A stretch of 64,000 bases of DNA from Escherichia coli. Its GTDB lineage: Bacteria; Pseudomonadota; Gammaproteobacteria; Enterobacterales; Enterobacteriaceae. Both the position numbers and the translations under genes were made by a program. The stretch's first letter is position 1. Every line of letters begins with the position of its first letter. The stretch lies in assembly GCF_036507355.1 (NCBI RefSeq), contig NZ_AP027877.1; one strand, 5' to 3'. This document shows, piece by piece, positions 16,502-19,620 of this stretch. The notes beneath the pieces are model-generated. The model saw nothing but the letters and a program-made list of their open reading frames with translations. It had not been told where the DNA came from and did no database searches.

Positions 16502-18480
<1,979 letters not shown>

Positions 18481-18482
<2 letters not shown>

Positions 18483-19620
18483 GTCAGAGCCCCTCGATCT
18501 CAATCAGTTAGCGCAAAAAATTAAACAGTGGGGGCTGGAACTGGGCTTTCAGCAGGTAGGTATTACCGATACCGATCTCAGCGAGTCCGAGCCCAAACTG
18601 CAAGCATGGCTGGACAAACAATACCACGGCGAAATGGACTGGATGGCACGTCACGGTATGTTGCGCGCCCGCCCTCACGAATTATTGCCCGGTACGCTGC
18701 GCGTGATCAGCGTGCGGATGAATTACCTTCCTGCTAACGCCGCATTTGCCAGCACGCTGAAAAACCCCAAACTCGGCTATGTCAGCCGTTATGCGCTGGG
18801 CCGTGACTATCACAAACTTCTGCGCAACCGACTCAAAAAGCTGGGCGAGATGATTCAGCAACATTGTGTTTCGCTGAATTTTAGACCGTTTGTCGATTCT
18901 GCGCCTATTCTCGAGCGCCCGTTAGCTGAAAAAGCTGGGCTCGGCTGGACAGGTAAGCACTCACTTATCCTCAATCGCGAGGCCGGTTCGTTCTTCTTTT
19001 TAGGCGAATTGCTGGTCGATATTCCGCTGCCCGTGGATCAACCAGTCGAGGAAGGATGCGGCAAATGCGTGGCCTGTATGACGATTTGCCCGACCGGTGC
19101 CATCGTCGAGCCATATACCGTCGATGCTCGCCGCTGTATCTCTTATCTCACCATCGAACTGGAAGGGGCGATCCCGGAAGAGTTGCGACCGTTAATGGGA
19201 AACCGTATTTACGGTTGCGATGACTGCCAGCTTATCTGCCCGTGGAATCGCTATTCACAACTCACTACAGAAGACGATTTCAGCCCGCGTAAGCCGCTAC
19301 ACGCACCGGAACTCATTGAGTTATTCGCCTGGAGCGAAGAGAAGTTTTTAAAAGTCACGGAAGGATCGGCGATTCGTCGTATTGGTCACCTGCGTTGGCT
19401 GCGTAATATCACCGTAGCATTAGGCAATGCGCCCTGGGATGAAACGATTCTGGCGGCGCTGGAGAGTCGCAAAGGTGAGCACCCACTTCTTGATGAGCAC
19501 ATAGCGTGGGCGATGGCGCAGCAAATCGAGAGGCGAAATGCGTGCATAGTCGAAGTGCAATTGCCGAAAAAACAGCGTCTGGTTCGGGTAATTGAAAAAG
19601 GGTTACCGCGTGACGCCTGA
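18481..19620 (+). CDS. queG: Epoxyqueuosine reductase QueG
   Basis: Track ORF trimmed to the ATG at 18481 ([20 protein letters not shown]..., 379 aa); 4Fe-4S motif CGKCVACMTICP. Confidence 0.92.

What the first reader, a model, noticed from the sequence alone, without database searches (positions are those of the whole stretch)
18467..18483. Divergent nnr and queG start codons overlap by 2 nt
The queG ATG (18481-18483, plus) and the most upstream in-frame nnr ATG (18482-18480, minus) share the sequence CATGT. If both are genuine, neither gene has any intergenic promoter space, and each must be transcribed from inside the other's coding region. Alternatively nnr really starts at the next ATG (18467), 15 nt downstream.
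Basis: inference. Interest (0 to 1): 0.3.

Follow-up and report, generated by a model that had tools for sequence, protein, structure and literature searches.

The report
Head-to-head nnr/queG genes with interleaved promoters
Two back-to-back E. coli genes (nnr and queG) really do share their start codons in the palindrome CATG, and each is switched on from a promoter buried inside the other gene; this is a rare arrangement, but it is already annotated and the overlapping transcripts are already published for E. coli K-12.

Summary
The queG ATG is at 18481-18483 (+). The first nnr ATG is at 18482-18480 (-) and the second at 18467-18465 (-). RefSeq and MG1655 annotate exactly this 2-nt overlap.

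Comparative evidence favours the upstream ATG as the nnr start. It is kept in about 33 Enterobacterales genera and is the only in-frame start upstream of a conserved Nnr motif in at least 12. It has the better Shine-Dalgarno sequence. Its Met-Thr-Asp-His peptide survives, with only synonymous changes, in Pectobacterium, where the genes have separated. The second ATG is not conserved. Starting there would leave only 13 nt, so it would not restore a normal spacer.

Published K-12 data (Conway 2014, Lybecker, Huang 2020) map to:
- an nnr-operon transcript start at window 18870, 388 nt inside queG;
- a queG transcript start at 18456/7, inside nnr codon 9;
- a 413-nt zone of double-stranded RNA cut by RNase III.

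Both -10 elements (TAAAAT at 18883-18878 minus; TGgTATACT at 18441-18449 plus) lie on the longest invariant stretches of their host genes. Both are held in place by rare codons (AGA, ATA).

Mutual regulation is inferred, not shown. Already known; modest interest.

The parts
18481..19620 (+). queG coding sequence (epoxyqueuosine reductase, 379 aa).
   Evidence: ORF and identity. The start is fixed. Many genera have no upstream in-frame start, the next downstream start is at codon 52 in most, and the mapped transcript start is only 24 nt upstream.
16935..18482 (-). nnr (yjeF) coding sequence, 515 aa from ATG1. It is the first gene of the nnr-tsaE-amiB-mutL-miaA-hfq... superoperon.
   Evidence: Conway 2014 calls yjeF...rlmB the most complex operon in their E. 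coli data set.
18480..18483 (.). Shared palindrome CATG. The queG ATG is 18481-18483 (+) and nnr ATG1 is 18482-18480 (-), a 2-nt CDS overlap.
   Evidence: Conserved in about 33 Enterobacterales genera and in Tolumonas.
18465..18467 (-). Second in-frame nnr ATG (codon 6). Not the main start; possibly a minor one.
   Evidence: Codon 6 is V, L, N, K, E or R in other genera. Shine-Dalgarno pairing is -3.2 kcal/mol, weaker than the random mean of -4.2. It is NTG in all 21 Enterobacteriaceae sequences, and it is the only in-frame start in the metagenome-assembled genome L020.
18490..18495 (-). Shine-Dalgarno GAGGGG for nnr ATG1, 7 nt upstream of it. It is the reverse complement of queG codons Pro4-Leu5 (CCC CTC).
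   Evidence: -8.1 kcal/mol. CTC is conserved where the genes overlap and is replaced (TAC) in Pectobacterium and Brenneria, where they do not.
18441..18449 (+). queG promoter, an extended -10 TGgTATACT (hexamer 18444-18449), embedded in nnr codons Ser12-Ile13-Pro14 (AGT ATA CCA).
   Evidence: It lies 7-8 nt upstream of the mapped queG 5' end. TATACCACA is the longest invariant run in nnr. The motif stays upstream of queG in Pectobacterium, Brenneria, Photorhabdus and Xenorhabdus, where it is intergenic. The rare codon ATA is used in 20/20 Enterobacteriaceae and TTA in 13/13 other genera.
18456..18480 (+). queG transcript start (18456/7) and its ~24-nt 5' UTR. This stretch is antisense to nnr codons 1-9.
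   Evidence: The Conway overlap ends at U00096.2 4392114, which maps to window 18457. The coordinate offset was checked with a sequenced small RNA. A queG-sense p19 read UCAUUGUAUGGUCCGUCAUGUC covers 18464-18485.
18878..18883 (-). -10 hexamer TAAAAT of the primary nnr-operon promoter, embedded in queG codons Asn133-Phe134-Arg135 (AAT TTT AGA).
   Evidence: It is 7 nt upstream of the mapped start. The 13-nt stretch TGAATTTTAGACC (18875-18887) is the longest invariant run in queG among 21 Enterobacteriaceae sequences (P=0.008 by codon-column shuffle). Arg135 is AGA in 21/21, the only one of 26 invariant Arg columns with a single codon. Outside Enterobacteriaceae this codon is CGN and the hexamer is lost.
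18483..18870 (-). nnr-operon transcript start (18870) and its 388-nt 5' UTR, antisense to queG codons 1-130.
   Evidence: Conway promoter at U00096.2 4391701, + strand, terminator at 4408049, marked 'Divergent', overlap 413. No Rfam family matches here.
18457..18870 (.). Zone where the two divergent transcripts are complementary. It forms double-stranded RNA that RNase III cuts.
   Evidence: [quoted passage not shown]

Best explanation
This is a genuine head-to-head overlap of two real genes.

nnr translation starts at the upstream ATG (18482-18480), served by a GAGGGG Shine-Dalgarno sequence that is the reverse complement of queG codons 4-5. queG starts at 18481.

Because there is no intergenic DNA, the two promoters are interleaved and face each other:
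- The primary promoter of the nnr-tsaE-amiB-mutL-miaA-hfq superoperon (-10 TAAAAT, 18883-18878 minus; start 18870) lies in queG codons 133-135.
- The queG promoter (extended -10 TGgTATACT, 18441-18449 plus; start 18456/7) lies in nnr codons 12-14.

The two mRNAs are therefore complementary over about 413 nt, a stretch that includes both ribosome-binding sites. In K-12 they pair into double-stranded RNA that RNase III cuts.

What is shown, by published K-12 data plus the conservation found here: the transcript ends, the dsRNA, and selection on both -10 elements.

What is inferred:
- ATG1 is the main start. This rests on comparative evidence only.
- The face-to-face layout makes the two units dampen each other, through polymerase collision and antisense pairing. 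This has not been tested.
For: Geometry and annotation.

ATG1 as the nnr start:
- It is conserved in about 33 genera.
- It is the only in-frame ATG/GTG/TTG upstream of the conserved S[IL]PH..W.A motif in at least 12 genera.
- That motif is a protein-level feature, found also in distant Nnr proteins with other gene arrangements.
- Shine-Dalgarno pairing is -8.1 kcal/mol against -3.2 for ATG2.
- In Pectobacterium, nnr sits about 146 nt from queG yet keeps M-T-D-H, with all three codons changed synonymously (ACA GAT CAC against ACG GAC CAT).

queG start: no usable alternative exists.

Transcript ends and dsRNA:
- Huang 2020 Table 2 and Table S1 relay the Conway promoter 4391701, overlap 413, 'Divergent'; Lybecker MS-212; and p19 clusters containing reads that span both start codons.
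- The coordinate conversion was verified.

Promoter elements:
- They lie at the correct distance from the mapped ends.
- They are the longest invariant runs in their host genes.
- They are fixed by rare codons: AGA 21/21, ATA 20/20, TTA 13/13.
- The queG -10 is retained in intergenic DNA where nnr is absent or displaced.
Against: - No ribosome start-site profiling or N-terminal proteomics for nnr could be retrieved. ATG1 against ATG2 in E. coli therefore rests on comparative inference.
- Conservation of ATG1 is partly confounded, because two of its three bases are the queG ATG.
- Codon 6 is NTG in all 21 Enterobacteriaceae sequences. One metagenome-assembled genome (L020) has a 1-nt insertion that leaves only ATG2 in frame, so ATG2 may work as a start.
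- Neither promoter has a good -35 element, and the generic promoter scan found nothing.
- The transcript ends come from one RNA-seq-based operon map, read second-hand. An independent Cappable-seq table gave no hit in the text held.
- No data here show that either gene's expression depends on the other.
Confidence: 0.8

Rival explanations
1. nnr is translated only from the second ATG (18467). The upstream ATG is an accidental by-product of the queG start codon, and MTDHT is not part of the protein.
For: - Two of ATG1's three bases are forced by the queG ATG.
- ATG2 is present in Escherichia, Citrobacter and some Enterobacter-like genomes.
- Codon 6 is a start-capable NTG in 18 of 21 Enterobacteriaceae sequences.
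- L020 carries a frameshift between the two ATGs, which leaves only ATG2 usable.
Against: - At least 12 genera have no start codon at or near codon 6, yet keep the conserved downstream motif.
- The Shine-Dalgarno pairing for ATG2 is weaker than the random average.
- M-T-D-H is kept, with synonymous changes only, in Pectobacterium, where it no longer overlaps queG.
- Even if true, the spacer would be 13 nt and both promoters would still be embedded.
Confidence: 0.08
2. Both ATGs are used in E. coli, giving two Nnr forms that differ by five residues.
For: - Codon 6 is NTG in all 21 Enterobacteriaceae sequences.
- L020 appears to rely on ATG2.
- In-frame downstream starts are documented for dozens of E. 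coli genes (Meydan et al., as quoted).
Against: - ATG2 has a weak Shine-Dalgarno sequence.
- The codon is CTG in three genera and not a start at all outside the family.
- NTG could simply reflect a conserved hydrophobic residue, or a constraint from the queG 5' UTR.
- L020 is a metagenome assembly, so the insertion may be an error.
Confidence: 0.15
3. The overlap is an annotation artefact because queG really starts further downstream or upstream.
For: The queG reading frame stays open for 36 codons upstream, to a GTG at 18373.
Against: - Many genera have a stop codon 3-6 codons upstream, or no upstream start at all.
- The next downstream start is at codon 52 in most, beyond conserved N-terminal residues.
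- The mapped transcript begins only 24 nt upstream of the ATG.
Confidence: 0.02

Closest known systems
The same locus in E. coli K-12 MG1655 (nnr/yjeF b4167 and queG/yjeS b4166)
   Same: - The gene order, the CATG junction and the 2-nt overlap are identical.
- The window is 97.5% identical to K-12 over 601 nt with no indels.
- The 81-nt stretch containing the nnr promoter is identical.
   Different: The window comes from a somewhat unusual E. coli lineage. Only 1 of 5426 complete genomes is at least 99% identical over the 601 nt. No functional difference was seen at the junction.
Divergent operons with overlapping 5' ends that give RNase III-cleaved dsRNA (Conway 2014; Lybecker 2014; Huang 2020)
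   Same: This pair is listed as such a case. [quoted passage not shown]
   Different: In most listed cases the overlap lies in or near 5' UTRs across a real intergenic region. Here there is no intergenic DNA, so both promoters, both ribosome-binding sites and both start codons lie inside the partner's coding sequence.
Listeria excludon (a long antisense 5' UTR that represses the divergent neighbour while serving as mRNA for its own operon)
   Same: The 388-nt 5' leader of the nnr operon is antisense to the first 130 codons of the divergent gene, and it also serves as the operon's mRNA. Huang et al. draw the same analogy for the similar rsd/nudC locus.
   Different: Reciprocal expression and an on/off role have not been shown here. 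The overlap is also mutual, since the queG leader covers the nnr start as well.
Face-to-face (convergent) promoters that cause transcriptional interference, e.g. coliphage 186 pR/pL or pCF10 prgQ/prgX
   Same: The two promoters fire toward each other across a shared transcribed interval of about 413 bp.
   Different: Those systems have measured interference and a switch function. None has been measured here.
Divergent overlapping gene pairs in bacterial genomes (Huvet & Stumpf 2014)
   Same: It is a head-to-head CDS overlap.
   Different: The class is very rare. Only 2 of 663 overlapping adjacent pairs in their E. coli reference are divergent. Whether nnr/queG is one of those two was not checked.

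Membership tests
Divergent (head-to-head) overlapping coding sequences | Gene A's start is genuine at the annotated position (queG ATG 18481). | tested here: met
   The N-terminus is conserved. Many genera have no upstream in-frame start, the next downstream start is at codon 52 in most, and the transcript start is 24 nt upstream.
Divergent (head-to-head) overlapping coding sequences | Gene B's start is genuine at the annotated position (nnr ATG 18482). | tested here: met
   It is the sole available start in at least 12 genera. It has a good Shine-Dalgarno sequence. M-T-D-H is kept, with synonymous changes only, where the genes are uncoupled from each other. This is comparative evidence only; no direct initiation data were obtained.
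Divergent operons with overlapping 5' transcripts forming dsRNA | Each transcript start lies beyond the start of the other transcript. | tested here: met
   Published K-12 map: promoter at 4391701 (+) and a 413-nt divergent overlap. Matching conserved -10 elements lie at both sites.
Divergent operons with overlapping 5' transcripts forming dsRNA | Double-stranded RNA is detected over the overlap and depends on RNase III processing. | tested here: met
   From the literature, not a new experiment: Lybecker MS-212 and the p19-captured clusters E-284 and S-361, with paired reads on both strands.
Excludon | A long antisense leader covers the divergent neighbour and continues as mRNA for its own operon. 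| tested here: met
   A 388-nt leader antisense to queG codons 1-130, continuing into the 14-gene yjeF...rlmB operon.
Excludon | The two divergent units are expressed in a mutually exclusive or reciprocal way. | not testable with these tools
   It needs expression data from promoter mutants or across conditions. The relevant RNA-seq table in Huang 2020 was truncated in the copy held.
Transcriptional interference by convergent promoters | The activity of one promoter measurably lowers output from the other in cis. | not testable with these tools
   Only the geometry is established (promoters about 413 bp apart, facing each other).

The most novel reading that the evidence does not exclude
The interleaved promoters may form a conserved reciprocal control device. 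Firing of the primary promoter of the nnr-tsaE-amiB-mutL-miaA-hfq superoperon would silence queG, by polymerase collision and by RNase III cleavage of paired 5' regions that hide both ribosome-binding sites. Firing of the queG promoter would do the reverse. This would link a queuosine tRNA-modification gene to an operon that carries two other tRNA-modification genes and hfq. The layout has been kept across Enterobacteriaceae at the cost of rare codons in both genes.
Probability: 0.2. Interest if true: 0.5.

Novelty: already known. Interest (0 to 1): 0.3.

Why it matters
- **Annotation.** It settles a small annotation question: the 515-aa Nnr form and the 2-nt overlap are right.
- **What the tight junction means.** A very tight divergent junction need not signal a mis-called start. 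Here it marks one of the very few true head-to-head overlaps in E. coli.
- **Practical consequences.** Each gene carries the other's promoter and ribosome-binding site. Deletions, synonymous recoding or codon optimisation of queG can therefore remove the primary promoter of the operon that leads to mutL, miaA and hfq. Edits to the first 15 codons of nnr can likewise silence queG.
- **Possible regulation.** The rare-codon-locked -10 elements are a clean natural example of regulatory sequence constraining protein-coding sequence. If the mutual antisense arrangement proves regulatory, it would tie queuosine synthesis to that superoperon.

Tried and rejected
- **Generic promoter and terminator scan of 18000-19000.** It found nothing. 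Both promoters lack a good -35 element, so the scan's 9-of-12 rule misses them.
- **Direct evidence for the nnr start.** None could be retrieved:
  - Meydan Ribo-RET preprint: no supplement held. The journal version is not held.
  - TRAINSPOTTER 2026, Nakahigashi TetRP and the Salmonella 'Proteins a la carte' paper: no mention of the gene names searched (yjeF or nnr, and queG and/or yjeS, or the b-numbers).
- **Independent transcript-start tables.** Conway supplements are not held, Thomason 2015 is not held, and the Cappable-seq tables gave no hit.
- **Solved structures.** There is no E. coli Nnr structure. The T. maritima homologue aligns only from residue 61, so it cannot tell the two starts apart.
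- **Rfam.** No RNA family matches the overlap region; the only hits are the three tRNA-Gly genes.
- **The 60-aa ORF (18864 to 18682, minus).** It begins 6 nt after the nnr transcript start, so I considered it as an upstream ORF. I rejected it because most Enterobacteriaceae have stop codons in it.
- **A sigma-E type promoter.** GGTCTAAA resembles that -10 element, but by eye there is no GGAACTT-like -35 at the right spacing.
- **The TTG at 18503.** The ORF listing uses it as the ORF start, but it has no Shine-Dalgarno sequence (-0.4 kcal/mol).

Full report
**Observation**

The window reads ...GGTCCGTCATGTCAGAG... at 18471-18489.
- On the plus strand, ATG at 18481-18483 opens queG (379 aa, [11 protein letters not shown]...).
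- On the minus strand, ATG at 18482-18480 opens nnr (515 aa, [10 protein letters not shown]...). A second in-frame ATG lies at 18467-18465.

The window is E. coli-like: 97.5% identical to K-12 over 601 nt, with no indels. RefSeq/PGAP annotates exactly this overlap, as does the MG1655 reference (nnr 4394066..4395613 +, queG 4392928..4394067 -). So the overlap is already the accepted annotation.

**Which nnr start is real**

I fetched 80 queG loci from one genome per species and located nnr in each.
- In about 33 Enterobacterales genera, from Escherichia to Yersinia, Hafnia, Budvicia and Edwardsiella, nnr residue 1 aligns to the base next to the queG ATG. The CATG junction is conserved. Tolumonas, in another order, has it too.
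- The second ATG is not conserved. Codon 6 is V, L, N, K, E or R elsewhere.
- In at least 12 genera, ATG1 is the only ATG/GTG/TTG between the upstream stop codon and the conserved motif S-[IL]-P-H-S-x-W/F-x-A. That motif is a protein feature: it recurs in Nnr proteins of Vibrionales, Alteromonadales and Aeromonadales that have other gene spacings.
- Anti-Shine-Dalgarno pairing is -8.1 kcal/mol for ATG1 (GAGGGG, 7 nt upstream). It is -3.2 for ATG2, below the random mean of -4.2.
- The cleanest test is natural. In Pectobacterium the two genes are about 146 nt apart, yet nnr still begins M-(M)-T-D-H, with ACA GAT CAC in place of ACG GAC CAT. That is three synonymous changes and no replacement. 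Codons 2-4 are therefore under protein-level selection.

Some caveats remain:
- Two of ATG1's three bases are forced by the queG ATG.
- Codon 6 is NTG in all 21 Enterobacteriaceae sequences and start-capable in 18.
- One metagenome-assembled genome (L020) has a 1-nt insertion that leaves only ATG2 in frame.
- I could not reach any start-site profiling or N-terminal proteomics for this gene.

I put ATG1 as the main start at about 0.8-0.85. Minor use of ATG2 is not excluded.

**The queG start**

Many genera have a stop codon 3-6 codons upstream, or no upstream start at all. The next in-frame start is at codon 52 in most. The mapped transcript begins 24 nt upstream of the ATG. The ATG at 18481 is the only plausible start.

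**Where the promoters are**

With either nnr start, the gap is -2 or +13 nt, so neither promoter can be intergenic.

Published K-12 data answer the question directly.
- Huang et al. 2020 (PMC7373196) list yjeS/yjeF among the 20 most abundant coding-gene clusters of p19-captured, RNase III-generated dsRNA. It is cluster S-361, 4,391,754-4,392,109, type 5' overlap.
- Their Table S1 carries the matching Lybecker dsRNA locus (MS-212, Divergent, 4391717-4392100).
- It also carries the Conway 2014 entry: promoter 4391701, terminator 4408049, + strand, Divergent, overlap length 413, overlap coordinates 4391701-4392114 (column headers checked).
- These are U00096.2 coordinates. The +1977 offset to NC_000913.3 was verified with a sequenced read, CAUGACGGACCAUACAAUGAAG, at 4392087 (0-based), against the nnr start at 4394066.

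Mapped to the window:
- The nnr-operon transcript starts at 18870 (minus). This is 388 nt upstream of ATG1, inside queG codon 130.
- The queG transcript starts at 18456/7 (plus). This is 24 nt upstream of its ATG, inside nnr codon 9.

[quoted passage not shown] The promoter inside queG is its first one.

**Sequence support for both promoters**

*nnr promoter*
- On the minus strand, TAAAAT (18883-18878) lies 7 nt upstream of the A at 18870.
- On the plus strand this is queG Asn133-Phe134-Arg135, AAT TTT AGA.
- Among 21 Enterobacteriaceae sequences (median 80% identity), the 13-nt stretch TGAATTTTAGACC (18875-18887) is the longest invariant run in the whole gene. The next longest is 8 nt, and P=0.008 by shuffling codon columns.
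- Arg135 is AGA in 21/21. It is the only one of 26 invariant Arg columns with a single codon, and AGA makes up 5.8% of Arg codons overall.
- The A of AGA supplies the first T of the hexamer. Outside Enterobacteriaceae the codon is CGN and the hexamer is lost. This promoter is therefore family-specific.

*queG promoter*
- TGgTATACT (18441-18449) is an extended -10 element, 7-8 nt upstream of the mapped start.
- It is the reverse complement of nnr Ser12-Ile13-Pro14, AGT ATA CCA.
- TATACCACA is the longest invariant run in nnr. The second longest is ATGACGGA, at the start codon.
- Ile13 uses the rare codon ATA in 20/20 Enterobacteriaceae, against about 6% elsewhere in nnr. Other families use TTA in 13/13, which gives TAAACT.
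- The motif stays at the same distance upstream of queG in Pectobacterium, Brenneria, Photorhabdus and Xenorhabdus, where the DNA is intergenic. It also appears in Tolumonas, Alteromonas, Aliidiomarina and Thalassotalea. So it belongs to queG and is not merely a consequence of Nnr coding.

Neither promoter has a good -35 element, which explains why the generic scan found nothing.

**How it most likely works**

The two promoters face each other across about 413 bp. Each mRNA's 5' part is the perfect complement of the other's, including both Shine-Dalgarno regions and both start codons. That dsRNA forms and is cut by RNase III is shown in K-12, with paired p19 reads lying directly over the CATG.

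It is a reasonable inference that this lowers the output of one or both genes, through polymerase collision, occlusion of the ribosome-binding sites or cleavage. The analogy is with excludons and convergent-promoter interference. No data examined here test it.

The tight head-to-head layout is old. In other Gammaproteobacteria the spacing between the two starts ranges from -2 to about 100 nt.

**Comparison with what is known, and novelty**

Head-to-head CDS overlaps are rare. Huvet & Stumpf count 2 divergent pairs among 663 overlapping pairs in E. coli.

This particular overlap is in the reference annotation, and its overlapping transcripts and dsRNA are in published tables. The finding is therefore already known. 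This analysis adds three things:
- The argument for ATG1.
- The point that the alternative start would not change the conclusion.
- Evidence that both embedded -10 elements are under strong, rare-codon-locking selection.

**Within-species check**

The 65-nt core 18436-18500 is identical in 5249 of 5425 E. coli genomes. One variant strain that I examined has changes at 18452 and 18490. Neither change touches a start codon or a -10 hexamer.

**Verdict**

It is biologically neat but already documented. Interest is 0.3.

Noticed in passing
window 16935-16963: The end of nnr and the start of tsaE overlap by 29 nt on the same strand (tsaE ATG at 16963, nnr stop ends at 16935). K-12 is annotated the same way.
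   Followed up: no
window 19603-19656 (minus): The 17-aa K-12 small ORF yjeV maps here. It converges on queG and overlaps its last 18 nt.
   Followed up: no
window 19893-20188 (minus): Three tandem tRNA-Gly genes (glyV/X/Y in K-12) lie between queG and orn.
   Followed up: partly
window 18682-18864 (minus): A 60-aa ORF starts 6 nt downstream of the nnr-operon transcript start, antisense to queG. Most Enterobacteriaceae have stop codons in it, so it is a chance ORF.
   Followed up: yes
window 18465-18467; L020 2480-2502: nnr codon 6 is NTG in all 21 Enterobacteriaceae sequences (ATG, GTG or TTG in 18). A soil metagenome-assembled genome (L020) has a 1-nt insertion between the two ATGs, so only the second is in frame. 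This could mean a back-up start or an assembly error.
   Followed up: partly
L029 2355-2501; L033 2354-2501: In Pectobacterium and Brenneria, about 146 nt separate the pair. nnr keeps its MTDH/MADQ start and gains its own upstream region. queG keeps its TGnTAACAT/TAAAAT -10 element and a relic of the old junction (GGCCCATCATG).
   Followed up: partly
L058 ~2475-2479; L067 ~2478-2482: Bowmanella and Lacimicrobium may have a 1-nt head-to-head overlap (CAATG: a TTG start for nnr against an ATG for queG). The start assignments there are uncertain.
   Followed up: no
window 18200-18800: Only 1 of 5426 complete E. coli genomes is at least 99% identical to this 601-nt stretch; nearly all others are 95-99%. 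The window therefore comes from a sparsely sampled lineage. The 65-nt junction core is nevertheless identical in 96.8% of genomes.
   Followed up: partly
window 18875-18887 compared with loci L023-L039: The nnr-operon -10 element inside queG exists only in Enterobacteriaceae, because the AGA codon is CGN elsewhere. Yersinia, Serratia, Pantoea and others keep the CATG overlap, so they must drive nnr from a different, unidentified promoter.
   Followed up: no
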